Below are positions 33,500 to 46,867 of a DNA stretch of 64,000 bases, piece by piece. Every line of letters starts with the position of its first letter. Position 1 is the stretch's first letter. The position numbers and the translations under genes were made by a program. Below the pieces are notes generated by a model. That model did no database searches. It was not told the DNA's origin and saw only the letters and a program-made list of their open reading frames with translations. This DNA comes from Cytophagaceae bacterium ABcell3 (lineage in GTDB: Bacteria; Bacteroidota; Bacteroidia; Cytophagales; Cytophagaceae), in NCBI GenBank assembly GCA_030913385.1, contig CP133159.1, forward strand, positions 640,584-704,583, written 5' to 3'.

Positions 33500-36400
33500 A
33501 TGGCAGAAGATAAAAACCCTTCAGCAGAAGCAGAAAAGAACAATAACAATATAGACGCCGGAGCTTACCGGATCCTCAGAAACCGATTGGATACGGCTGC
33601 GAACGACTTGAAGTCAAGGCTTGGCAAGCTGAACGAAGAGCGGAAATCTGTTTTCGGTTCAGTCGAAAGCCGTATCATCGGAAATGAAAGAGTTACTACC
33701 GAAAACAACTGCGTTGCCCGCGACATGATTTCTGTGGGGCATCACTTGCTTTTTGGATATAATGTCCACTTGGGACTTAAATCTGAAATGGAGGTAAGCG
33801 ATGTTTTTAATGTGTATGAGTTTAATGACAATTCTTTTCATGATGCAGGGCTTGAACTGATCAATGATAGCACATTTGAAAGCGACTTCAGAGACCTTTA
33901 TAAATATTATAAAAATACCGTTTTTGAGAAGTTTGCTGTCATAGGACCTTTTCTGTACATGGTTTTTCGTGTAGGGAAAAATAAAGGGGACATAAAAACT
34001 TTTAAATGGCTTATTGCTGAAAATGCCTTTCAATACCAGGGCAACCGCAGCGATCATGAGTTTAAATTTCCTCCTCAGTTTGAGTTTGAATGGGTAAGGA
34101 CTACCAGGGACAGCCATAGGAGTGGAAAACATCCGCATGTTTCTGTGTTGGACAAGGTATTTATAGAAACGGTGGGTGGCGATTTGACTATTAAGGTTGA
34201 AGATAATACCGACAATGGCGAAGGTATTCTTTCCGAGCCAGTAGAGGATAGGGACCAGAAACTTGATGATGCTGAAATTTACTATGCTGATCTTGACAAC
34301 ATTATTCTTCTAAAAATTAAACCTTTTAGGGAAAAAGAATTCCGGTATATAGTATATAACCATAGAATCAAGCAGGCAAAAAGGATAGACGCTATAAAGG
34401 ATTCCTGCGTGCTGCTACCGGACAACCATGGTATTATATTTTCTAAGGGATACTATCTCCAGACAGGTGAATATAAGCTGTTCGAGAACGAAGTTCAGGG
34501 GCTTCTTTTCGAAAAAATGATAGCTTCTCCCAATGGAGAGGATTTTATGTATGTGTTTTATAGCATGGATTACGGCGCTTATATTATGCTGCCGTACAAC
34601 CTTATAAATCAGCATGTGGAAAACCTAATTGTATGTCACGGTTATTCATTTTTTCCTGATGGCGAGCTGATTTATTTTACAGACCAAAGCAATGCTACAA
34701 AACATCATACCATTCAAATATGGCAGACACCGTTTGTAAGCCCAGATTATGTTCCTCCTGTTCAGTCGGACTGTTACCTGTTCAAGATTGGCAATAAGGA
34801 TATTGTCCGCGCTATGGCGGAATGTACCGAGCTTCTCAACCTTTTGCAGAAAGATGATGAATCTTATGCAAACTTGTATTATGATATAGTTAAACTGGCG
34901 GGCGATATTACAGATTCTTATTTTTGGATCAGGGAAGAAGCGGCCTTTAATTTGGCAGCAGCTTTAACTGTTGTCCGAAATACTGCCTCCTCTGCTATCG
35001 ATGAATTTCAGAAAGTCCAGCGGATTAAGCAAAACACCCGACAACAGACAGAGAAATATGCTGTAGAGGTTAAAGAAGTGCTGCGGGTTATTAGTAGGGA
35101 ACGTTTTGAAGATATTGATGCATTTGTGGGGGTTCTGTCAAAAATTAGGGGGCTACGGGGAGAGGTTATTTCTTTGAAAGACCTGAGGTATGCCGATACT
35201 AAATTTATAGAAGGGCTGGAAAAAGAGCTGGAGAAAGAAGCTGAAAAGGTTTCTGAAAGGTGCGTACGGTTCTTGCTCGACGAATCATCGCTTACGCCTT
35301 ATCATACCAAGCTGGAAGAGCAGAAGGAAGGCATTGAAAAGGCCACTAGGGTTGCAGAGGTTTCTGAAAGGATTGAAGAACTTAATGATATTTCTGCCGG
35401 GTTGGAAATGCTTATAGATACCGTTTCTAACCTTAAAATTGAGGACGCCACAGAAACAACCCGTATTATTGACAATATTTCCCTTATTTTCTCAGACTTA
35501 AACCAACTCAAATCAAGGGCAGGAAATATTAGGTCTGGTTTTAGGAAAGGGGAAAGCACCGCAGAGTTTCATGCGCAAATACGCTTGGTTGAGCAGGCCA
35601 TCGTAAACTATCTTGATCTGTGCGACACACCCGAAAAATGCGAGGAATACCTTACCCGCTTAATGGTCCAGTTGGAAGAATTAGAAGCAAAGTTTTCTGA
35701 CTTTGATGAATTCATTACTAACATTACTGAAAAGCGGGAAGAAGTATACGAGGCATTTGAAAACCGGAAACTCAACATTGTTGAAGCCCGAAACAATAGG
35801 GCCAACACGTTAATGTCCTCTGCTGACCGGATTTTGAAAGGTATTCAGAACCGGGTGGCCCGTTTTGAGGATACCAAAGATATCAATGGTTACTTTGCCT
35901 CTGATATGATGATCGACAAAGTGCGAGATATCATAAAAGAGCTTCAGCAACTGAATGACTCTGTAAAAGCGGATGAACTTCAGGGTAAGCTGAAAAATTT
36001 AAGAGAAGAAGCCTTAAGGCAACTGCGGGATAAGCAGGATATTTTTGTGGCAGGGGCCAACTTGGTTAAGTTTGGAGATCATCATTTCTCTGTTAATACC
36101 CAAGCACTCGATTTAACCATTGTCAACCGTAACCAGGAATTGTTTTATCACTTAACCGGAACGGGCTTTTTTGAAAAAGTGGAAGATGAAAGACTGGCTG
36201 GTACCAGAGAAGTTTGGGAGCAAACCGTTGTTTCAGAGAATCAACAAGTTTATAGAGGAGAGTATCTTGCCTATAAAATCTATACAGACGCAGTGGCTGG
36301 AAGAGGGGAAAGTAAAGATCATTTATATATGCTGACCATTCCTGACCTACAGGCTTATGTGCAGCAGTATATGGCACCAAGATATGCAGAAGCGTATGTA

Positions 36401-38416
36401 AAAGGGGTGCATGACAAAGATGCTGCCCTTCTGCTAAAGTCACTTCTTGAGCTGGACCACAATTCTGACTTGCTTCGCTATGATCCACTTACCAGGGCTT
36501 GTGGATATTTCTGTTGGAATTATGCCTTTGGTGTAGAGAGGCGTGCAATTTTGGATAAACGACTTAAAGGAACAGGTATCATATTGAAAGTCTTCCCTGA
36601 CCCTGGTTCTTTCAGCGAGGTCCGTGCAGACCTTGAAGCGGAGGTGAAAGCTGTACTTGCTAAAAACGAGCTTTTTGCAGAAGTTTCATGTGCTCAGGTG
36701 GCGGCTTATCTTTTTGATGAATTGGTACGAAGCAATACCTTTATACTTAGCCATGAGGCCGAGGTACTTTATAAAAACTTTACCCAGTATCTCGAAAAAA
36801 GCCGGACCAAAGAATTGCTGGAGTCGTCTTTGGAAATGCTGAAAGACAATTGTGAAGAGCAGTTCATACTAGCCCGTAACTGGTTACATGCTTTTATAAA
36901 GAACAAAGAAGGTCAGGAGCAGCTTAAAGAATTTGCGGACGAAGCTACTTTGTTGTTGCTAAATAAAGATGAGCAATGGAATATTGTTAAGGCTTCTCTA
37001 CAGGTAACCCTTGAAGGTTTCTCCGGTAACCACGCTGTAGTGGAAGACGGAAAATACCACTTACATTATAACAAGTTCCTTAATAAAATGCGGCATTATG
37101 AATCTCATACTGTGCCGCTTTTCGAAAGGTATATTAAGGCCAAGAACAAGGCGGTTGATGAAAAGAAAGCCAGCCTAAGGTTGCAGGAGTTCCTGCCAAA
37201 AGTCATGAGTTCTTTTGTGCGTAACAGACTTATTGATGAAGTATACCTTCCTTTAATAGGGGCTAATTTTGCTAAACAATTGGGTGCCGCCGGCGATAAC
37301 AAACGTACAGACAATTCCGGTATGCTTTTGCTGGTATCGCCTCCGGGTTATGGAAAGACCACGCTTATGGAGTACATTGCCAGTCGATTGGGTATTATTT
37401 TCATGAAAATAAACGGACCGGCTCTTGGCAATAGGGTTACCTCCCTCGATCCAGTCGAAGCTCCAAATGCAGGAGCACGTGAGGAAATAGAAAAGCTTAA
37501 TTTAGCTTTTGAAATGGGCGATAATGTCATGATTTATGTTGATGACATTCAGCATTGTAGTGCTGAGTTCCTGCAAAAGTTCATTTCCCTTTGCGATGCC
37601 CAACGTAGGATTGAAGGCGTGTACAAAGGTAGGTCAAAAACTTATGATTTTAGGGGTAAGAAGGTCTGTGTGGTAATGGCGGGTAACCCATATACTGAAA
37701 CGGGTGAGAAGTTCCGTATCCCTGACATGCTTGCCAACAGGGCTGATACATATAACCTTGGTGATATTATTGGCGATAAAGCTGAAGCATTCAGGTTGAG
37801 TTATATTGAAAATAGTATGACCTCTAACACTACGCTGAATAAACTGTCAAATCGTAGTGCGAAGGATATTTATACCTTTATGCAACTAGCCGAAAACGGT
37901 GACCGGGACGACCTAAGCTTTGAAGGAAACTATTCTCCAGAAGAAATTAGTGAAATTGTTTCTGTCCTTAAAAAGCTGTTTGCTGTAAGGGAGGCTGTGT
38001 TGAAAGTAAACCTTCAATATATTTATTCTGCCTCTCAGTCTGACGATTACCGTGAGGAGCCAGCCTTTAAGATGCAAGGTTCATACCGGAACATGAATAA
38101 AATGGCAGAACAGGTAGTTCCGGTTATGAATGACGAGGAGCTAGTAACTTTGATCCGGACGCACTATAACAACGAGTCGCAAACCCTTACCACTGACGCT
38201 GAAGCCAACCTTCTTAAGTTTAAGGCTATTAATAATTGGTTAACGGAAGAAGAAGAGGCGCGGTGGAATGTCATAAAACAAACGTTCCAGAAAAACCAGA
38301 AGTTTAGAGGCGCAGGAGACAATCAGGTAGGCCTGCTTGTTTCGCAGCTTAGTGTTCTCGGCGACGGTGTGGACGGTATTCGAAAGGCGATTGAATATAG
38401 AGGAAAGGGTGAATAA
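33500..38416 (+). CDS. Giant (1638 aa) protein with C-terminal MoxR/McrB-like (helix-2-insert clade) AAA+ ATPase domain
   Basis: Walker A LLLVSPPGYGKTTL, Walker B VMIYVDDIQHCSAEFLQ, sensor-1 VVMAGNP, and an Arg in RIPDMLANRAD. About 1250 aa of upstream sequence has no motif I recognise, plus coiled-coil segments. Confidence 0.7.
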   Translation: MAEDKNPSAEAEKNNNNIDAGAYRILRNRLDTAANDLKSRLGKLNEERKSVFGSVESRIIGNERVTTENNCVARDMISVGHHLLFGYNVHLGLKSEMEVSDVFNVYEFNDNSFHDAGLELINDSTFESDFRDLYKYYKNTVFEKFAVIGPFLYMVFRVGKNKGDIKTFKWLIAENAFQYQGNRSDHEFKFPPQFEFEWVRTTRDSHRSGKHPHVSVLDKVFIETVGGDLTIKVEDNTDNGEGILSEPVEDRDQKLDDAEIYYADLDNIILLKIKPFREKEFRYIVYNHRIKQAKRIDAIKDSCVLLPDNHGIIFSKGYYLQTGEYKLFENEVQGLLFEKMIASPNGEDFMYVFYSMDYGAYIMLPYNLINQHVENLIVCHGYSFFPDGELIYFTDQSNATKHHTIQIWQTPFVSPDYVPPVQSDCYLFKIGNKDIVRAMAECTELLNLLQKDDESYANLYYDIVKLAGDITDSYFWIREEAAFNLAAALTVVRNTASSAIDEFQKVQRIKQNTRQQTEKYAVEVKEVLRVISRERFEDIDAFVGVLSKIRGLRGEVISLKDLRYADTKFIEGLEKELEKEAEKVSERCVRFLLDESSLTPYHTKLEEQKEGIEKATRVAEVSERIEELNDISAGLEMLIDTVSNLKIEDATETTRIIDNISLIFSDLNQLKSRAGNIRSGFRKGESTAEFHAQIRLVEQAIVNYLDLCDTPEKCEEYLTRLMVQLEELEAKFSDFDEFITNITEKREEVYEAFENRKLNIVEARNNRANTLMSSADRILKGIQNRVARFEDTKDINGYFASDMMIDKVRDIIKELQQLNDSVKADELQGKLKNLREEALRQLRDKQDIFVAGANLVKFGDHHFSVNTQALDLTIVNRNQELFYHLTGTGFFEKVEDERLAGTREVWEQTVVSENQQVYRGEYLAYKIYTDAVAGRGESKDHLYMLTIPDLQAYVQQYMAPRYAEAYVKGVHDKDAALLLKSLLELDHNSDLLRYDPLTRACGYFCWNYAFGVERRAILDKRLKGTGIILKVFPDPGSFSEVRADLEAEVKAVLAKNELFAEVSCAQVAAYLFDELVRSNTFILSHEAEVLYKNFTQYLEKSRTKELLESSLEMLKDNCEEQFILARNWLHAFIKNKEGQEQLKEFADEATLLLLNKDEQWNIVKASLQVTLEGFSGNHAVVEDGKYHLHYNKFLNKMRHYESHTVPLFERYIKAKNKAVDEKKASLRLQEFLPKVMSSFVRNRLIDEVYLPLIGANFAKQLGAAGDNKRTDNSGMLLLVSPPGYGKTTLMEYIASRLGIIFMKINGPALGNRVTSLDPVEAPNAGAREEIEKLNLAFEMGDNVMIYVDDIQHCSAEFLQKFISLCDAQRRIEGVYKGRSKTYDFRGKKVCVVMAGNPYTETGEKFRIPDMLANRADTYNLGDIIGDKAEAFRLSYIENSMTSNTTLNKLSNRSAKDIYTFMQLAENGDRDDLSFEGNYSPEEISEIVSVLKKLFAVREAVLKVNLQYIYSASQSDDYREEPAFKMQGSYRNMNKMAEQVVPVMNDEELVTLIRTHYNNESQTLTTDAEANLLKFKAINNWLTEEEEARWNVIKQTFQKNQKFRGAGDNQVGLLVSQLSVLGDGVDGIRKAIEYRGKGE

Positions 38417-38463
38417 TACTGATGTGTTAGGAGAGAGACTGAGGTGGTATCCTGTTCCGGTTA

Positions 38464-38883
38464 TTGTTTTTTATAAACTGGAACTATTTATTATATTCAG
38501 ATAGTCAGGAACAAAAAACACATTTGGACATGCCTATTAAAAGGTTTTTCAAAATATTGCAGGCCAACCTCAACCAAGGAAAGGAAGGGTATACCTACAT
38601 TCCTCCAGAGGAGCCTCCTAAGGAAAAGAGCTTTTATGAGCCCAAAACCGTGAGCAATGAAAATCCTGTGGATGTGAAGGAGGCGGGCTATTATTCCAAT
38701 CTTGAGTTGCCTTATGGAGCGGGATTTGATGAAATTAGGAAAAACTATAGGCGTTTAATGAAGCAATATCATCCTGACAAGTTTCATAATGATTCGGGAA
38801 GGAAAGCTTATGCAGAAGAGGTAAGCAGGTTGTTAATCGAGGCATACACTTATTTTGAGGATAAATTCTCAAAAAAAACTTGA
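38464..38883 (+). CDS. Small J-domain protein (DnaJ-like co-chaperone)
   Basis: C-terminal J-domain FDEIRKNYRRLMKQYHPDKF... The start may be the Met at 38531. Confidence 0.75.
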   Translation: MFFINWNYLLYSDSQEQKTHLDMPIKRFFKILQANLNQGKEGYTYIPPEEPPKEKSFYEPKTVSNENPVDVKEAGYYSNLELPYGAGFDEIRKNYRRLMKQYHPDKFHNDSGRKAYAEEVSRLLIEAYTYFEDKFSKKT

Positions 38884-38933
38884 TATTTTAAAGGAAAAGA
38901 GGAAATTTACTAAGTATTTAAATTTGAGCAAAT

Positions 38934-39659
38934 ATGTTTAATTGGTTAAAAAGGCTTTTTATGATAGGTGGAGCCGAAGCACATAAAGCACTGGACAAAC
39001 TTGAAGACCCTGTCAATATGATAGAGCAAGGCATTCGTGATCTGAAAGAAGACCTGAACAAAGGACTTAAGAGCCTTGCGGAAGTGAAAGCCCTTGCTAT
39101 TAAAGCTCAAAATGACCAAAAGTCTCAAACCAATTCTGCCAGGGAATATGAAGAGAAAGCGGTTTTGTTGTTGAAGAAAGCCCAAACCGGTGGACTAGAC
39201 CCTACAGAAGCTGACAGGTTGGCGAGCGAAGCCCTTATGAAGCAGCAGGCTATTGCCAAACAGGTTGAGGCGCAAAATGCGACCATTAAGCAGTACCAGG
39301 AGATGGCTGCACAAATAGAAAGTAACAATAACCTTCTCAAAAAGAAGATTGACAACTATGAATCCGAACTGGGGTCTTTAAAAGCACGTGTTAAAGTGGC
39401 TAAAAGTACAAAAGACTTTAACAAATCCATGGCCGGCCTTGACTCTAATGAAACCCTTCGGATGTTAGAGAGAATGAAGGACAAAATATCTCACGAAGAA
39501 GCCCTTGCCCAATCCTATGGCGCTATTGCCGAAAGCAAAACTTCTATAGACGATCAGATAAACCGTGCTTTAGAAGGAGCTACCGTAAACCCTGAGGTGA
39601 AGGATTCTTTAGCTGAACTAAAAGCAAAACTGGGTATGGATAAAAAGCTTGAGGAGTAG
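38934..39659 (+). CDS. pspA: PspA/IM30 (Vipp1) family protein
   Basis: MFNWLKRLF...LDKLEDPVNMIEQGIRDLKEDLNKG is the canonical PspA N-terminus; 241 aa, all coiled coil. Confidence 0.85.
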   Translation: MFNWLKRLFMIGGAEAHKALDKLEDPVNMIEQGIRDLKEDLNKGLKSLAEVKALAIKAQNDQKSQTNSAREYEEKAVLLLKKAQTGGLDPTEADRLASEALMKQQAIAKQVEAQNATIKQYQEMAAQIESNNNLLKKKIDNYESELGSLKARVKVAKSTKDFNKSMAGLDSNETLRMLERMKDKISHEEALAQSYGAIAESKTSIDDQINRALEGATVNPEVKDSLAELKAKLGMDKKLEE

Positions 39660-39687: not shown

Positions 39688-39722
39688 ACGCAGGGAGGCT
39701 GTTGGTTTTCCTGCGTTTTTTG
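39688..39722 (+). terminator. Rho-independent terminator of the pspA operon
   Basis: ACGCAGGGAGGCTGTTGGTTTTCCTGCGTTTTTTG. Confidence 0.8.
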
Positions 39723-40499
39723 ATTATTCTGTAGTATGCAATAGAACTTTCCCCTGTCCTTTTTTTCAGCACTTCTACTTGTAAGAATTGATGAATTTGC
39801 CACACCTAACGAGGTTTTAGATAATCGAATAAACTCTTTGAAACTAAGTTATTTTTAGATAATTTAATATCTGTATTTAAACGTTTACAAACGTTTGATA
39901 AAAGTTTGCAAACGGTTTTGTTGTTGGAAATCAACGTATTGCTGTTTTGGACAATAAGAAATTATAAAGGAGATATATCCTGAATTTTGGGGATATACAA
40001 TCGTTATGGCCAATTTATGAAATACAGACTTTTACATATTATCTTTCTGTTGCTGATATTAATTGGATGTGATTTTAAAACATCCAGCGAATATTTTAAT
40101 GATGGAAATATGAAGTCAAATAATGGAGATTATGAAGGTGCTATAAAAGATTTTACTTTGGCAATTAATAAAAATCCTAATGACTATGAATCATATACTA
40201 ATAGAGGAGCTGATTATGCAGCAATTGGAAGGTATAAAGAAGCAATAAGTGATTATAATAAAGCTGTAGAATTAAATCCCAGCAACATAATGGCATACTT
40301 CAATAGAGGTAATTTAAAATCAAAATTAAATGATTTTAATGGTGCAATTGAAGATTATAATCAGGCAATTAAACTTAAGGGGGGAGAAAACCTTTATGTG
40401 GAAATTCATGATAATGATTTCTTAGGTATTCGCTCAACTGACGTAAGAATGGAAAATATCAGATTACAAAGTAAGCCTTCGGGCAAGTGCATGTTGATT

Positions 40500-41954
40500 T
40501 TATAATTTTACCCACTTCCCGGGTAGCAGTTCTTCCAGCCTGTTTACCGGGTGATTGTCTATTCTTTCCAGAACATCTTTCATCCATTCCAATGGGTTTA
40601 CACCGTTGATTTTGCAGCTTGCCACAAGCGAGTATATTTGGGCGGCTCTCTGGGCAGCATCATGTGAACCGGCAAACAGATAATTTTTCCTTCCTATGGC
40701 TACTGGCCTTATTGAGTTTTCCACCAGATTGTTATCTATCTCCAGCTTGCCATCCTCAAGATATATGGAGAGCCTTTCCCATCTGCTCAAGGAGTATTCG
40801 AGCGCCTTTCCAATAGGACTCCTAGGGGCAATATTAGGGTACAGGTTTTTCATCCATTCTTCCAGGTCGTCCAATGTTGTTTTTGCATCAAGCCTTGATT
40901 CCTTTCTTTCTTCAAAAGACATCCCGGCCTCCCTTGCTTTACGCTCAATATCATATAACTTCTGAAATTCTTTCAAGGCATGTTCTGCATTTTCTTTGTC
41001 ATTGTCCAATGCTTTCTCAAACATCCTTCTGGCATGTGCCATACAATGGAACAATGTTATGCCCTTGATGTTGGCAAACATATCATATACGTTATACCCG
41101 TCACATTGCAGGTATCCCTGAAAACCCTTCAGTATATCTGATGGCCCTTCGCTCCCGCGCCCGGGACGATAGTCGAACAGCACCTGTTTCCCGACAGGGT
41201 CATAATATACCCAGTAATACCCCCGGTGGATTTTACTTTTTTTATCCTTGTCGAGAACTTTTATGGGTGTCTCGTCTGCCATCAGGTAACCGGCTTGCAG
41301 TGTCCTCTTTTTATGCAGTTCGTATAAGATTTTAAGCTTGTTTACCCCTTGTTTTACCCAGTCTGACATTGTGGAAGAAGGAAAATTAAGGCCTTCTCTC
41401 TTAAATATCTGTATCTGGCGGTATAAAGGAAGGTGGTCAACATACTTGCTGACAACAAGGAAAGCGACAAGGCTTGCTCCGGCTATCCCTTTCTCTATCG
41501 CCCTGTATGGCAATTCTCCAATGGCAACACCCTCCCCTTCAGGTTTTGCGTATTTCGGGCGTACAATTTTGCGCACATGAAACTTTCCGGTGGTATATTC
41601 AAGAACCTCTGTCACCTCTTCCCCAATTTTTTTCATGCCTGAGGTATCTTCTTCAGGCTCAACAACCTCTTCCACCCTTGGTACATGTGCCGGTATAGGG
41701 AGGCGGCCCGGGTGCTTGCGGGCTGTTTCTTTTTTGACACGCTTAAACCTGACGACCTCCTCTTTTTCAGGGGCAGTTGCCTGCTCTTCACCAAGTCCCA
41801 GGTTTAACTGTTCCGGTGCGGACGAAGGCACAAAACGCTCGCTTTTGGTGCCATATATGAGGCGCTTCAGCTCTTTGAGCTCAAACTTCAAAAGTGCGAT
41901 CTCGGACATCGCCTCCTCATATTTTTCTTTATAGTCTATACCTTCGGCAAGCAT
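40500..41954 (-). CDS. IS66 family transposase (TnpC)
   Basis: 484 aa; LQCDGYNVYDMF and AHARRMF are typical of the IS66 DDE transposase. Confidence 0.85.
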   Translation of the reverse strand: MLAEGIDYKEKYEEAMSEIALLKFELKELKRLIYGTKSERFVPSSAPEQLNLGLGEEQATAPEKEEVVRFKRVKKETARKHPGRLPIPAHVPRVEEVVEPEEDTSGMKKIGEEVTEVLEYTTGKFHVRKIVRPKYAKPEGEGVAIGELPYRAIEKGIAGASLVAFLVVSKYVDHLPLYRQIQIFKREGLNFPSSTMSDWVKQGVNKLKILYELHKKRTLQAGYLMADETPIKVLDKDKKSKIHRGYYWVYYDPVGKQVLFDYRPGRGSEGPSDILKGFQGYLQCDGYNVYDMFANIKGITLFHCMAHARRMFEKALDNDKENAEHALKEFQKLYDIERKAREAGMSFEERKESRLDAKTTLDDLEEWMKNLYPNIAPRSPIGKALEYSLSRWERLSIYLEDGKLEIDNNLVENSIRPVAIGRKNYLFAGSHDAAQRAAQIYSLVASCKINGVNPLEWMKDVLERIDNHPVNRLEELLPGKWVKL

Positions 41955-42010
41955 GTTGCAAAGATAAATAATATACCTATGTAGGTGGTATTAGGAAAAA
42001 AAGAATAAGT

Positions 42011-42370
42011 TTAAAGATTTCCAGGACTTTTATATCTTTTGCGGTGCCTGACCGACTCAAGGGAAATCCCTTGTAAGACCAGTTGCAATACCGAGGCGGA
42101 TATTTCAGATTTGGTCACATTTTTGCAATGGACAGGTATTTCATAAGTCCCTCTTTCAAGGCGTTTGTGATACATACTGAAACCGTCGCCTTCCCATAAA
42201 AGGAGCTTGACATGGTTTCGGTTTCGGTTCAGGAAAATAAAAATGTCCCCGTTCATGGGGTTTTCGTTAAGTTTGCTCCTTACAATACCTGATAGGCTGT
42301 CAAACCCTTTCCGCATGTCGGTTTTGCCCGAATAGAGAAAGTACCTGCACTGGTGAGACAATGAAAGCAT
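42011..42370 (-). CDS. IS66 accessory protein TnpB (Orf2)
   Basis: GKTDMRKGFDSLSGIV...FIFLNRNRNHVKLL. Confidence 0.8.
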   Translation of the reverse strand: MLSLSHQCRYFLYSGKTDMRKGFDSLSGIVRSKLNENPMNGDIFIFLNRNRNHVKLLLWEGDGFSMYHKRLERGTYEIPVHCKNVTKSEISASVLQLVLQGISLESVRHRKRYKSPGNL

Positions 42371-42372
42371 GG

Positions 42373-42672
42373 CTAGCTGACTAATTGTTTAACAAATGAT
42401 GGATCTGCCATGCCGTGGAATATGACCTTGGCACCGGAAGGAAAGACAACTTCCATGTTGCCGGCCGCAGGGTTAATTTCATCAGGGCTGCTTACTTTCA
42501 GAGGGACAAATCCGGTACCGGGCTCCTCTGTTCTATATTTGCCGCACCAATAGATGAATTTTTGATAATTGATGTTCTGCCGAAGGCTAAATTCTTTTTT
42601 ACTGATACCGCTTTGTTGCCAGAGCTGATAAAGCTCACGCATCTGGTCAGATACTTTTGTGTTTGTTGCCAT
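42373..42672 (-). CDS. IS66 Orf1 (TnpA, HTH)
   Basis: 99-aa protein upstream of tnpB inside the IS boundaries. Confidence 0.7.
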   Translation of the reverse strand: MATNTKVSDQMRELYQLWQQSGISKKEFSLRQNINYQKFIYWCGKYRTEEPGTGFVPLKVSSPDEINPAAGNMEVVFPSGAKVIFHGMADPSFVKQLVS

Positions 42673-43125
42673 TATTTTGCTGTTATAGTTTGTAATGCAA
42701 ACTTATGGCGTTATTTTTTGGGAATAAAGATGTACTTGGCCGTAGGTATACATTACAAAGGGGATTTGCCTATGGAGAATTAAATAATTATGAAATGGCA
42801 TTTCACGACTTTGACTTCTGCGTAGCAAATAAATTTGACATAGATATAGCTTTGTTATGGAGAGGTGTATGTTATTATAATACAGGATTTAAAAAAGATG
42901 CTTGCAAGGATTGGCTTATATCAAACCATGAAGAAGCTAAAGAATATTTTAAAATAAATTGTCAGGGAATTTAATACAAACTGGCCATAACAGCATATAT
43001 ACCTCAGAGGGGGTGGGCGTTGTAAGTCAGGCTGTTTCTAATTATCTTACTTCGGCTTCGGAGGATACTGGACTGCTATAAAATCCCCCACTGCTTCAAG
43101 CTTAACGTTATAGGGCATTATAAAA

Positions 43126-43764
43126 ATGAAAACCTTCCATCTAATACTTTTATTTTCAATTATTTTTACTTCCTGTGACTGTAATCAAAGGGTTTTAGGA
43201 ACTGTAATAGATAAAAAAACAAGAAAACCTCTTGAGGGAATTAGTGTGTATAATAAAAATAAAAGATGGAATGTGACCAATACTGATTCTACTGGAAAAT
43301 TTATATTATCAAATGTTTCTGGCGGATTTCGTTGTCCACCAATGACAGTGATAATTGAAGACTCTAGTTACAATTATTTTGAAACTAAAATTCCATCAGG
43401 TAAAGGCAAAATTATTGAATTGACTAAAAAAGATTCCTTAAATCAATTTGTAAAACAAATAATGGATTCAGGGAAATATGGAGTGTATGCAGATTGGTCA
43501 AATTTTATTGAGATTAAATTTATTAATAATGAACAATTTGAACTTGTGAATCAACAAACCATAGGAAGTCAAGGTGTATTCATAATGGAAGGCAAGTGGA
43601 AAGTTAAGGAGGGGGATATTGTTTTGTATAAAATAAAAATCATAGAAAAGTCTTTGAAAGTTGATATACCCAAACAATGGAGAATAATTAATGACGAATT
43701 GTGCCCCATAGATACGACTAATTCCGACTTAAACTATTGCCTAAAACCCGTAAGAAATGATTAA
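43126..43764 (+). CDS. Lipoprotein with carboxypeptidase-regulatory-like domain
   Basis: MKTFHLILLFSIIFTSCDCN lipobox; GTVIDKKTRKPLEGISVY...TDSTGKF. Confidence 0.55.
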   Translation: MKTFHLILLFSIIFTSCDCNQRVLGTVIDKKTRKPLEGISVYNKNKRWNVTNTDSTGKFILSNVSGGFRCPPMTVIIEDSSYNYFETKIPSGKGKIIELTKKDSLNQFVKQIMDSGKYGVYADWSNFIEIKFINNEQFELVNQQTIGSQGVFIMEGKWKVKEGDIVLYKIKIIEKSLKVDIPKQWRIINDELCPIDTTNSDLNYCLKPVRND

Positions 43765-43828
43765 CGCCCTATAACAACTATGGCTTCGTTAGGTATGTAA
43801 TGCCCACAATGAAGCCAGTGTTGTACGA

Positions 43829-44108
43829 AACCGGGGGTAACGCTATGGGGGGTGCTATTCTGGGTTGGGGTTTTCTGTAGGTTAGAATTGGGAACTAATG
43901 CAGCTTTTTGCAAAGTATAACAAGTCAGAACAGGGTCTATGGTTGGCTTAAAAGGATAAGGAGGCAGTTCTCACTCCTGTTCTAACATTGGTAATTAGGA
44001 TTTGAATAGGCTAACGCTTAAGATTGTATAACAAGAGCCGTATGATGGGAGACTATCAAGTACGGTTCTGTGAGAGGCTTGGGGTGAAATTCCCCTTGCC
44101 TACTCGAC
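43829..44108 (+). mobile_element. Group II intron remnant (domains V and VI intact, ORF-less; 5' boundary uncertain)
   Basis: Domain V GAGCCGTATGATGGGAGACTATCAAGTACGGTTC (44035-44068) matches the group II DV consensus GAGCCGUAUG...ACGUACGGUUC. DVI AGGCTTGGGGTGAAATTCCCCTTGCCT-A-CTC carries a bulged A 6 nt before an ...AC 3' end at 44108. Confidence 0.6.
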
Positions 44109-44221
44109 TATCAACGGTAATATTTATGTAAAAAGGAGCCCAGAAATTCTCTCACAGGTGTTATAGAAAATATTATCTTTGAAATCTATAACAATTGCGA
44201 TAGAATTTCATTGTATTGTAA

Positions 44222-45271
44222 ATGAGCGAAATAGTAGCCTATAAAGATTTTTATAAAGAAATAATTGATACGATTAATGCCAGAAGATATAAGGCATATA
44301 AATCGTTGAACAGGCATCACATAGAACACAATTTTGAACTTGGTGAAATAATTGTAAAACATCAGGAAAAACAAAAGTGGGGACAATCAATAGTTGAGAA
44401 ACTTTCTAAAGATATTACCAAGCAAATTGATGGACTAACAGGTTATTCGCCTCAGAATCTATGGAAAATGCGTCAATTTTATCTTGAATATAGAGAGAAA
44501 ACTGTACTGTATGAATTAGCCAAACAAATTCCGTGGGGACAAAATATGCTAGTTCTCCATCAGGTAAAAGACGACAATGAACGAAGGTACTATTTAGAAG
44601 CAACAGCAAGGTTGGGGTGGAGTCGAGCTGTTTTGTTAAATCAAATTAAAGCAGATGCTTATAAGCATCATGTGTTAGATAAGAAGTTAAGCAATTTTGA
44701 AGCTGCGTTACCGTCACATCTATCAGAACAAGCAAATGAAGCTTTAAAAAGTGAATATAATCTTGATTTTCTCGGAATTACCAAACCTGTCCATGAACGA
44801 GAAATTGAAAATAGACTAATTGAAAATATTCGCGATTTATTACTTGAGTTAGGATATGGATTTAGTTTTATAGGAAATCAGTATCGGTTAACATTGAACA
44901 ACAAAGAGTATTTTATTGACTTGCTTTTTTATCACCGGTTTTTGAAATGCTTGGTTGCAATTGAATTAAAAACTGTTGAATTTGAGCCTGAATTTGCAGG
45001 AAAAATGAATTTTTATCTTGAACTTCTCGACAGTAAGGAAAAGCAAGCAGATGACAATCCTTCAATTGGGATTATTCTATGCCCGACAAAAGACGATATT
45101 GAGGTTGAATTTGCTCTGAGGTCTAGTAATAAACCCATTGGTGTATCTGAATATAAATTAACTCATGAACTTCCTGAAAATCTAAAAGGAAAAGTTCCTA
45201 CTTCGAAAGAATTAAAACAAATGCTAACAATAGCTATTAGTAATGCAGGCGGTTCAGCTAAAGGAATATAA
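44222..45271 (+). CDS. YhcG/DUF1016-family PD-(D/E)xK nuclease-like protein
   Basis: The C-terminal YFIDLLFYHRFLKCLVAIELK core matches how I remember the DUF1016 family. Confidence 0.6.
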   Translation: MSEIVAYKDFYKEIIDTINARRYKAYKSLNRHHIEHNFELGEIIVKHQEKQKWGQSIVEKLSKDITKQIDGLTGYSPQNLWKMRQFYLEYREKTVLYELAKQIPWGQNMLVLHQVKDDNERRYYLEATARLGWSRAVLLNQIKADAYKHHVLDKKLSNFEAALPSHLSEQANEALKSEYNLDFLGITKPVHEREIENRLIENIRDLLLELGYGFSFIGNQYRLTLNNKEYFIDLLFYHRFLKCLVAIELKTVEFEPEFAGKMNFYLELLDSKEKQADDNPSIGIILCPTKDDIEVEFALRSSNKPIGVSEYKLTHELPENLKGKVPTSKELKQMLTIAISNAGGSAKGI

Positions 45272-45330
45272 TACTCCCCAATTTTCAGACCACTACTTTA
45301 ATTGATTTATAATCGTTAAATTAGTGAAAT

Positions 45331-45624
45331 ATGAAAGGAAAAAGAAGAAAGTTTACTGCCGCATTTAAAGCACAAGTTGCTGTTGAAGCTTTAAAAGAAA
45401 GAGATAGTTTGGCAGATTTGGCAAGTCGTTTTGAGGTTCACCCTAATATGATCAGTAAGTGGAAGCAAGAGTTTCTTGAAAGGTCCTCAGCAGTCTTTGA
45501 GAAAGACAGTTCAGAGCAAAATCAGGAGCCTTCTATTGATCCTGAAAAGCTTTATGCAAAAATTGGCAAGCTTGAACTGGAGAATGACTTTTTAAAAAAA
45601 AGCTTAGGAAAGTTGGGGAAGTAA
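45331..45624 (+). CDS. IS3 family transposase OrfA (HTH)
   Basis: MKGKRRKFTAAFKAQVAVEAL...; leucine-zipper end. Confidence 0.85.
   Translation: MKGKRRKFTAAFKAQVAVEALKERDSLADLASRFEVHPNMISKWKQEFLERSSAVFEKDSSEQNQEPSIDPEKLYAKIGKLELENDFLKKSLGKLGK
45592..45599 (+). other. A7G -1 programmed frameshift motif joining orfA to orfB
   Basis: TTTTAAAAAAAAGC. The -1 frame reads ...KKLRKVGEVKSLCSMVDTDHK, continuous with OrfB. Confidence 0.7.
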
Positions 45625-45638
45625 AATCTCTTTGTTCT

Positions 45639-46445
45639 ATGGTAGATACTGATCACAAGCTAAGTATTCGCTCCCAATGTGAGATTTTAAATATAAACCG
45701 TAGCAGGTTTTACTACTCTCCTGTTGGAGAAACTGAAGAAAACCTTAAAATAATGAGGGTTTTAGATGAACGGTACCTTCATAAACCTACACATGGTGTT
45801 TTGCAAATGCAGGACCACCTGAGAGATCTTGGTTTTACAGTAAACCATAAGCGAGTTCGTCGCCTATTGAGGCTTATGGGACTTATGGCCATTTACCCTA
45901 AAAAAAACCTCAGCAAGTTAGGCAAAGCTAAGTATATTTATCCCTATTTACTGAGAAACCTGGATGTTGAACGTACAAATCAGGTTTGGGAGATTGATAT
46001 AACATATATCCCGATGAAAAAAGGTTTTATGTACTTGACAGCCATTATCGATGTCCATAGCAGATATGTAGTTGGCTGGGGAGTATCAAACACACTCAGC
46101 GCTCAGTCGAGCCTATCGGTGCTGAAAGAAGCAGTAAGCAGGTATGGGAAGCCAGAGATAATAAACTCTGACCAAGGCAGCCAGTTTACCTGTGGAGAAT
46201 GGGTAAACCTGTTACAAGAAATGAGAATTAAAATCAGCATGGACGGCAAGGGAAGAGCCATTGACAATATTTATATAGAAAGGCTCTGGCGAACTGTAAA
46301 GCAAGACTATGTATACCTACATCCTGCTAAAGACGGTTTGGAACTTTACCAAGGGCTTGCTATATTCTTTGAGTTTTACAATTATGAAAAACACCATCAG
46401 GGAATAGAGCGACAGGTGCCATCAGATGTTTATTTAGCAGCATGA
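45639..46445 (+). CDS. IS3 family transposase OrfB (DDE integrase core)
   Basis: DDE motifs; HTH_21-like N-terminal region. Confidence 0.85.
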   Translation: MVDTDHKLSIRSQCEILNINRSRFYYSPVGETEENLKIMRVLDERYLHKPTHGVLQMQDHLRDLGFTVNHKRVRRLLRLMGLMAIYPKKNLSKLGKAKYIYPYLLRNLDVERTNQVWEIDITYIPMKKGFMYLTAIIDVHSRYVVGWGVSNTLSAQSSLSVLKEAVSRYGKPEIINSDQGSQFTCGEWVNLLQEMRIKISMDGKGRAIDNIYIERLWRTVKQDYVYLHPAKDGLELYQGLAIFFEFYNYEKHHQGIERQVPSDVYLAA

Positions 46446-46639
46446 GATACTGTTTTTCCTTACAATAGCAAAGGTAGCATGGTTATTTAACCTGTCAAGG
46501 CCAAGTGAATTCCTCCCTCCGGTCGGAAGCCTTGACAGATTAAATCTCCATTGCTAATATGCAATTGAAAGGAAAAAAAATATTAACTTAGAAATGAAGT
46601 GTAGTGGTCCTATGGATAGGTAGTATTATACTGTTCATA

Positions 46640-46867
46640 GGAGAAGAATACAAATTACAAGTTGGAAATAGCGATTTTTACATAGACTTGCTATTTTACC
46701 ATCGTGGTTTACAATGCTTAGTGGCTTTTGAACTTAAGGCAGATAAGTTTAAACCTGACCATTTAGGACAACTAAACTTTTATTTGGAAGCTTTAGACCG
46801 AGATGTAAACAAAATGAAAATCCAAGTATGGGGGTATTGTTGTGCAAAGACAAAGACAGTGAAGTAG
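46640..46867 (+). pseudogene. 5'-truncated DUF1016/YhcG paralog (C-terminal PD-(D/E)xK core only)
   Basis: YKLQVGNSDFYIDLLFYHRGLQCLVAFELKADKFKPDHLGQLNFYLE aligns to the C-terminus of 44222..45271 at about 55% identity. It begins at the IS3 right end. Confidence 0.65.

What the first reader, a model, noticed from the sequence alone, without database searches (positions are those of the whole stretch)
39987..42974. Recent IS66 insertion with intact 8-bp target-site duplication splitting a TPR lipoprotein gene
Imperfect 21-bp terminal inverted repeats bound a 2281-bp element carrying the tnpA-tnpB-tnpC trio. ATTACAAA is duplicated at both junctions. The two halves of the host gene rejoin in frame when the element and one duplication copy are removed. 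The intact TSD and full-length transposase genes argue for a recent, possibly still active, copy.
Basis: seen in the sequence. Interest (0 to 1): 0.5.

Follow-up and report, generated by a model that had tools for sequence, protein, structure and literature searches.

The report
Recent IS66 insertion splitting a lipoprotein gene
A 2.3-kb IS66-family jumping gene, one of at least six near-identical copies in this soda-lake bacterium's genome, has cleanly cut a small TPR lipoprotein gene in two; this is an ordinary, well-understood event.

Summary
Window 40471-42751 is a 2281-bp IS66-family insertion sequence. It carries tnpA, tnpB and tnpC on the minus strand, has imperfect terminal inverted repeats (17/23 matches) and is flanked by an exact 8-bp duplication, ATTACAAA. 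Removing the element and one duplicate restores a 222-aa TPR lipoprotein. That protein aligns end to end, without gaps, with uninterrupted homologues of 222-234 aa, and the junction falls in the invariant motif IRLQ|RG. The genome is Natronocytophaga cellulosiphila ABcell3 ('Cytophagaceae bacterium ABcell3'). Protein accession records show six TnpC proteins in this genome: three identical to this one and three differing by one residue. TnpA and TnpB are identical in at least four copies. The nearest TnpC outside this genome is only 65% identical. All catalytic and subgroup-invariant TnpC residues are present. The separated 3' part of the host gene is as conserved as the 5' part. A recent insertion by an element that is probably still active is therefore well supported. 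Empty-site alleles could not be tested because no close relatives are in the collections. This is a new, unnamed member of a well-known IS family, and its interest is low.

The parts
40017..40470 (+). 5' part of the split TPR lipoprotein gene: signal peptide with lipobox LIGC and three TPR repeats. The mechanical ORF runs 39987-40505 and reads 11 codons into the IS (tail SKPSGKCMLIL).
   Evidence: TPR_1 E 7.5e-26. Identical to the deposited 162-aa protein WMJ72116.1. Cys18 is invariant in homologues.
40463..40470 (.). Left copy of the 8-bp target-site duplication, ATTACAAA.
40471..42751 (-). Complete IS66-family insertion sequence, 2281 bp and 44% GC, in a host gene of about 28-33% GC. Its genes run antisense to the host gene.
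   Evidence: It is the only copy in the window (blastn).
40471..40493 (.). Terminal inverted repeat at the tnpC end, GTAAGCCTTCGGGCAAGTGCATG.
   Evidence: Matches the other end at 17/23 positions. The related element in L004 has the near-identical end GTAAGCCTTCGGCCAAGTGCATC.
40500..41954 (-). tnpC, a DDE transposase of 484 aa.
   Evidence: PF03050 E 2.9e-89, PF13817, PF13007 and NF033517 at 406 bits. It retains D227, D285, C304-MAHARR-310, E412 and all other subgroup-invariant residues.
42011..42370 (-). tnpB, the IS66 Orf2-like accessory protein of 119 aa.
   Evidence: PF05717 E 4.4e-32 and NF033819.
42373..42672 (-). tnpA, the IS66 accessory protein of 99 aa. Its stop codon lies 2 nt before the tnpB ATG.
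   Evidence: NF047593 E 2e-16. No Pfam hit.
42729..42751 (.). Terminal inverted repeat at the tnpA end. Its reverse complement is GTATACCTACGGCCAAGTACATC.
42752..42759 (.). Right copy of the 8-bp target-site duplication, ATTACAAA.
42760..42974 (+). 3' part of the split TPR lipoprotein gene: 71 codons plus the stop. It was deposited as an 89-aa hypothetical protein, WMJ72120.1, whose ATG at 42705 lies inside the IS end.
   Evidence: It is 72% identical to P0001 and P0002, against 64% for the 5' part.

Best explanation
A complete IS66-family insertion sequence (tnpA-tnpB-tnpC, 2281 bp) transposed into codon 152 of a 222-aa TPR lipoprotein gene of Natronocytophaga cellulosiphila ABcell3.

Mechanism (inferred from the family): the DDE transposase TnpC made staggered cuts 8 bp apart in the target. 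Repair of the gaps produced the ATTACAAA duplication.

Consequence (shown): the gene is split into a 151-residue N-terminal fragment with an 11-residue IS-encoded tail, and a detached 71-codon 3' piece. The gene is therefore almost certainly inactivated.

Timing (inferred): the element belongs to a set of at least six near-identical copies in this genome, so the insertion is evolutionarily recent and the IS lineage is probably still able to transpose.
For: - Anatomy: ends, inverted repeats, duplication and in-frame rejoining are read directly from the sequence, with chance estimates.
- Gene identities pass curated cut-offs.
- The restored protein aligns without gaps to six uninterrupted homologues of 222-234 aa. 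L150 and Q151 are invariant, and RG follows the junction in every full-length homologue. The two homologues whose loci were fetched (P0001 and P0004) are single uninterrupted genes there.
- Copy number: the identical TnpC carries three accessions, WMJ71721, WMJ72117 and WMJ72238. A variant with one substitution, V97I, carries three more, WMJ72221, WMJ73494 and WMJ75140. Identical TnpA and TnpB each carry at least four accessions, which is the display cap.
- TnpC keeps every subgroup-invariant residue, including the DDE candidates and the CMAHARR motif. Its 484-aa length is typical of the subgroup.
- A related element in an unrelated MAG (L004, 2297 bp, TnpC 51% identical) has GTAAGCC ends and its own 8-bp duplication, CCATATAC.
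- An 8-bp duplication is the reported hallmark of IS66 (PMC6778807, citing Machida et al. 1984).
- The 3' host fragment shows no stop codon, frameshift or loss of conservation.
Against: - No DNA of the other five copies could be fetched. The source genome is absent from genome contigs and from the gene-position index, so copy identity is known only at protein level.
- No empty-site allele or close relative of the host was found. The nearest host homologue is 68% identical, and an exact empty-site 24-mer is absent from the metagenome collection. The age of the insertion therefore cannot be bracketed phylogenetically.
- Activity is inferred, not observed.
Confidence: 0.93

Rival explanations
1. 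It is an old, fixed and inactive IS66 copy: a fossil whose duplication happens to have survived.
For: A single genome cannot date an insertion. The inverted repeats are imperfect at 17/23. The zf-IS66 match falls just under the Pfam cut-off, at 27.0 against 27.3 bits.
Against: - Six TnpC copies in the genome differ by at most one residue, and TnpA and TnpB are identical in at least four copies.
- All three ORFs are full length and TnpC keeps every subgroup-invariant residue.
- The duplication is perfect, and the separated 3' host fragment is undecayed.
- Imperfect inverted repeats also occur in the L004 relative, which has its own perfect duplication.
- No residue in the zinc-finger region is a conserved Cys anywhere in the 18 aligned subgroup members. 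The weak zf score is therefore a subgroup trait and not decay.
Confidence: 0.05
2. It is an assembly artefact: a multi-copy repeat placed wrongly, or a chimeric join between two IS copies.
For: The IS occurs at least six times in the genome, and repeats of 2.3 kb are a classic source of misassembly.
Against: - Both flanks belong to the same gene and rejoin in frame to a protein collinear with its homologues.
- An exact 8-bp duplication sits at both junctions. A chimeric join between two copies would give unrelated flanks with differing 8-mers.
- The deposited contig is a single 5.12-Mb sequence.
Confidence: 0.02

Closest known systems
IS66 family, canonical three-ORF group (IS66 of Agrobacterium Ti plasmids, IS679 of E. 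coli, ISRm14)
   Same: - It has the tnpA-tnpB-tnpC organisation, with the tnpA stop closely followed by the tnpB start.
- TnpC is a DDE transposase with the C-x-AH-x-RR motif between the second D and the E.
- The imperfect terminal inverted repeats begin with GTA(A).
- The target-site duplication is 8 bp.
- The length falls in the 2-3 kb range.
   Different: - TnpC is 65% identical or less to anything outside this genome, so by ISfinder practice (my knowledge) it would get a new name.
- At 2281 bp with a 484-aa TnpC, it lies at the short end of the family (typical sizes from my knowledge).
- tnpA and tnpB are separated by 2 nt. The ATGA overlap described for IS679 and IS66 is absent (from my knowledge of Han et al. 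2001).
- The 'zinc-finger' region has no conserved Cys in this subgroup.
Related element in MAG 'Bacteroidetes bacterium OH_PBB_119' (L004 1616-3912) and the metagenomic relatives P0064-P0182
   Same: - The gene order and the TnpC length class (about 484-500 aa) are the same.
- The left end is near-identical, GTAAGCCTTCGG(G/C)CAAGTGCAT.
- The L004 element also has an 8-bp duplication and is about 2.3 kb.
   Different: TnpC identity is only 51% to the L004 element and 53-65% to the listed metagenomic relatives. These are different elements of the same subgroup.
ISBst12-type IS66 relatives, which carry a single ORF
   Same: They share the TnpC-like DDE transposase fold and family.
   Different: That group lacks tnpA and tnpB (my knowledge). 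Both are present here and pass curated cut-offs.

Membership tests
IS66 family (insertion sequences) | A DDE transposase TnpC of the IS66 type, with the catalytic domain and the C-terminal element. | tested here: met
   PF03050 at 299.7 bits (cut-off 23.1), PF13817 at 59.6 bits (cut-off 30) and NF033517 at 406.5 bits (cut-off 180).
IS66 family (insertion sequences) | Conserved catalytic D, D and E residues, and the CwAH-rR motif. | tested here: met
   D227 (ADETP), D285 (QCDGY), C304-M-A-H-A-R-R310, and E412 (NLVEN) followed by R416, K423 and N424 are all invariant in the 18-sequence alignment A2. Their assignment as the catalytic residues rests on family knowledge, not on an experiment.
IS66 family (insertion sequences) | Accessory genes tnpA and tnpB lie upstream of tnpC on the same strand. 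| tested here: met
   TnpA matches NF047593 at 60.2 bits (cut-off 28). TnpB matches NF033819 at 95.1 bits (cut-off 50) and PF05717 at 110 bits. The order on the minus strand is A-B-C.
IS66 family (insertion sequences) | Imperfect terminal inverted repeats of about 15-30 bp that begin with GTAA. | tested here: met
   The ends are GTAAGCC... and GTATACC..., matching at 17/23 and 19/25 positions. The right end starts GTAT where the family has GTAA. The L004 relative has GTAAGCC at both ends.
IS66 family (insertion sequences) | An 8-bp target-site duplication. | tested here: met
   ATTACAAA at 40463-40470 and 42752-42759. The family value is given in PMC6778807.
IS66 family (insertion sequences) | An N-terminal leucine-zipper region and a zinc-finger region in TnpC. 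| tested here: inconclusive
   LZ_Tnp_IS66 matches at 43.6 bits (cut-off 22.9). zf-IS66 scores 27.0 bits against a cut-off of 27.3, and the region has no conserved Cys in this subgroup.
IS66 family (insertion sequences) | Demonstrated transposition that requires the three gene products. | not testable with these tools
   Only indirect evidence is available: at least six near-identical copies in the genome.
TPR lipoprotein (host gene) | A signal peptide ending in a lipobox with an invariant Cys, followed by TPR repeats. | tested here: met
   The signal peptide is MKYRLLHIIFLLLILIG-C18. L15 and C18 are invariant in all homologues. TPR_1, TPR_2 and TPR_11 score above their cut-offs. Lipidation itself was not tested.

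The most novel reading that the evidence does not exclude
This may be an undescribed IS66-family element that is transposing now in the type strain of a newly described haloalkaliphilic genus. It would belong to a Bacteroidota-centred IS66 subgroup whose TnpC lacks the zinc-finger cysteines. Two of its copies (WMJ72221-23 and WMJ72236-38) are inverted and bracket about 12 genes, so they might mobilise that segment as a composite transposon.
Probability: 0.3. Interest if true: 0.25.

Novelty: new member of a known kind. Interest (0 to 1): 0.12.

Why it matters
The value is mostly for annotation. WMJ72116.1 ('tetratricopeptide repeat protein', 162 aa) and WMJ72120.1 ('hypothetical protein', 89 aa) are two halves of one IS-disrupted gene and should be marked as a pseudogene. 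The IS deserves an ISfinder name. An expanding IS66 lineage also signals ongoing genome plasticity in this cellulolytic soda-lake isolate. That matters for strain stability in culture and for interpreting gene loss. It does not change what is known about IS66 biology.

Tried and rejected
- Exact-protein look-ups of TnpC, TnpB and P0003 in the gene-position index returned nothing. The flanks of the other copies could not be read.
- The genome-contig scan used a degenerate pattern that matches both IS ends. It did not contain the source genome. It returned five distant single-end matches in Bacteroidota MAGs, and only L004 held a complete relative.
- The metagenome scan for the reconstructed empty site, ATCAGATTACAAAGGGGATTTGCC, gave 0 hits. 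The scan for the exact left inverted repeat also gave 0 hits. No population-level evidence was obtained either way.
- The repeat finder did not report the terminal inverted repeats, because their longest exact run is only 5 nt. They were verified by direct comparison.
- The promoter and terminator consensus scan gave counts no higher than shuffled sequence, so it was not used.
- The 9-bp reading of the duplication was rejected because it puts the inverted repeats out of register.
- The idea that the weak zf-IS66 score signals decay was rejected, because the whole subgroup lacks those cysteines.
- Han et al. 2001 (PMC95320) is not held in the paper library. Statements about IS679 rest on my own knowledge.

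Full report
**Observation.** The sequence at 39700-43300 and a direct comparison of the ends show a 2281-bp element at 40471-42751.
- The left end is GTAAGCCTTCGGGCAAGTGCATG. The reverse complement of the right end is GTATACCTACGGCCAAGTACATC.
- The ends match at 16/21, 17/23 and 19/25 positions. The chance of at least 17/23 at a fixed position is about 2e-6.
- The octamer ATTACAAA abuts both ends, at 40463-40470 and 42752-42759. The chance is about 5e-5 at local base composition.
- The general repeat finder missed the inverted repeats because their exact runs are short.
- The base after each octamer is G, so a 9-bp reading is formally possible. Only the 8-bp reading places both inverted repeats in register.

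**What the element encodes.** There are three ORFs on the minus strand.
- 42373-42672 encodes a 99-aa protein. It matches the NCBIfam IS66 TnpA equivalog NF047593 at 60 bits against a cut-off of 28.
- 42011-42370 encodes a 119-aa protein. It matches TnpB_IS66 (PF05717, E 4e-32) and NF033819.
- 40500-41954 encodes a 484-aa protein. It matches DDE_Tnp_IS66 (E 3e-89), the IS66 C-terminal element, the leucine-zipper region and NF033517 at 406 bits.
- The tnpA stop lies 2 nt before the tnpB ATG. tnpC starts 56 nt after tnpB.
- The element is 44% GC. The host gene is about 28-33% GC and the whole window is 38.9% GC.
- It is the only copy in the window.

**The host gene.** Joining 39987-40470 to 42760-42974 gives a 699-nt open frame.
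- From ATG 40017 it encodes 222 aa: a signal peptide ending in the lipobox LIGC, then TPR repeats.
- A database search found uninterrupted homologues of 222-234 aa: P0001 at 68% identity, P0002 at 67%, Alkaliflexus imshenetskii P0004 at 54%, and P0005, P0006 and P0008.
- The restored protein aligns with these six without any gap at the junction. L150 and Q151 are invariant, and RG follows in every full-length homologue.
- The two homologues whose loci were fetched (P0001 and P0004) are single genes there, in unrelated neighbourhoods. No operon context is disrupted as far as can be seen.
- The 3' fragment is 72% identical to the two closest homologues, against 64% for the 5' part. There is no sign of pseudogene decay.

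**Source and copy number.** The search also returned P0003, a 162-aa 'tetratricopeptide repeat protein' of Cytophagaceae bacterium ABcell3, on a 5,118,518-bp contig.
- P0003 is identical to the N-terminal fragment, including the 11-residue tail SKPSGKCMLIL read from the IS end. The window therefore comes from that genome.
- The strain is a cellulolytic isolate from a Siberian soda lake (PMC11700989). It is now named Natronocytophaga cellulosiphila (PMC13220968).
- Cluster look-ups list accessions WMJ72116 to WMJ72120 for this locus: the TPR N-fragment, TnpC, TnpB, TnpA and the TPR C-fragment.
- The same TnpC sequence also carries accessions WMJ71721 and WMJ72238.
- A variant with one substitution, V97I, carries WMJ72221, WMJ73494 and WMJ75140.
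- Identical TnpB and TnpA each carry at least four accessions, which is the display cap.
- The genome therefore holds at least six copies whose transposases differ by at most one residue in 484.
- Outside this genome the nearest TnpC is 65% identical. Thousands of relatives fall around 50-60% identity, many on stand-alone contigs of about 2.3 kb.

**Integrity.** In an 18-sequence alignment of the subgroup, this TnpC retains every invariant residue.
- These include D227 (ADETP), D285 (QCDGY), the CMAHARR motif at 304-310, and E412 (NLVEN...R...RKN).
- Its length is the subgroup norm.
- The zf-IS66 match is marginal, at 27.0 against 27.3 bits. No conserved cysteine exists in that region in any subgroup member, so this is a lineage trait and not damage.

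**Independent check on behaviour.** A related element in an unrelated MAG occupies L004 1616-3912.
- It is 2297 bp and its TnpC is 51% identical.
- It has GTAAGCC at both ends and its own 8-bp duplication, CCATATAC.
- The 8-bp duplication is the reported IS66 hallmark (PMC6778807).

**Mechanism.**
- Shown: the anatomy, the gene identities, the clean in-frame disruption and the multiple near-identical copies.
- Inferred from family knowledge: TnpC, helped by TnpA and TnpB, bound the inverted repeats and inserted the element at staggered cuts 8 bp apart. Gap repair created the duplication.
- The requirement for all three genes rests on my knowledge of work on IS679 (Han et al. 2001), which the paper library does not hold.
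- The host gene is split at codon 152 and is presumably non-functional.

**What could not be tested.**
- The DNA of the other copies could not be read. The genome is absent from genome contigs and from the gene-position index.
- Empty-site alleles could not be found. There were no exact hits in metagenomes, and the nearest host homologue is 68% identical.
- Read-level support for the junctions could not be examined.
- A chimeric assembly is nevertheless very unlikely, because both flanks belong to one gene and carry the same octamer.

**Verdict.** This is a new, unnamed member of the IS66 family that inserted recently. It is ordinary biology, useful mainly for correcting annotation.

Noticed in passing
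window 44033-44108 (+); surrounding patch 43765-44115: There is a strong Rfam match to group II intron domains V-VI (RF00029, 66.5 bits, E 1.5e-12). It lies in a GC-richer patch of about 350 bp between a CarboxypepD_reg lipoprotein gene and a YhcG nuclease gene. No domain I-IV match and no reverse-transcriptase ORF lies nearby. It is probably a 5'-truncated intron remnant.
   Followed up: partly
window 45267-46630: An IS3-family-like element. orfA is at 45331-45624 (97 aa). orfB is at 45639-46445 (268 aa, rve integrase core, in the -1 frame). A 30-nt imperfect inverted repeat sits at 45267-45296 and 46601-46630. It lies directly after a full YhcG/DUF1016 nuclease gene (44222-45271). The ORF at 46604-46867 resembles the C-terminal YhcG region, as judged by eye from the translations. 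The IS66, the intron remnant and this IS3-like element therefore all lie within about 6 kb of low-GC DNA.
   Followed up: partly
outside the window; ABcell3 proteins WMJ72221-72223 and WMJ72236-72238: By accession order, two further copies of this IS66 element lie in inverted orientation, C-B-A then A-B-C. They bracket about 12 genes roughly 100 genes downstream of this locus. This is a composite-transposon-like arrangement. It could also be a substrate for inversion.
   Followed up: no
window 33500-39659 (+): Immediately upstream of the split gene lies a same-strand cluster. It comprises a 1638-aa protein with DUF3686 ('ATPase involved in DNA repair'), DUF7902 and AAA domains, a small DnaJ-domain protein, and a PspA/IM30 protein.
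   Followed up: no
window 42705-42974 (+): The deposited 89-aa 'hypothetical protein' WMJ72120.1 starts at an ATG inside the IS right end. It reads in frame into the 3' host fragment. The IS end thus supplies a start codon for the orphaned C-terminal piece. Whether it is expressed is unknown.
   Followed up: no
alignment A2 (TnpC subgroup), residues about 95-150 of the window's TnpC: All 18 aligned TnpC proteins of this subgroup lack conserved cysteines in the region that Pfam calls the IS66 zinc finger, although most still match PF13005. The 'zinc finger' of this subgroup probably does not bind zinc.
   Followed up: partly
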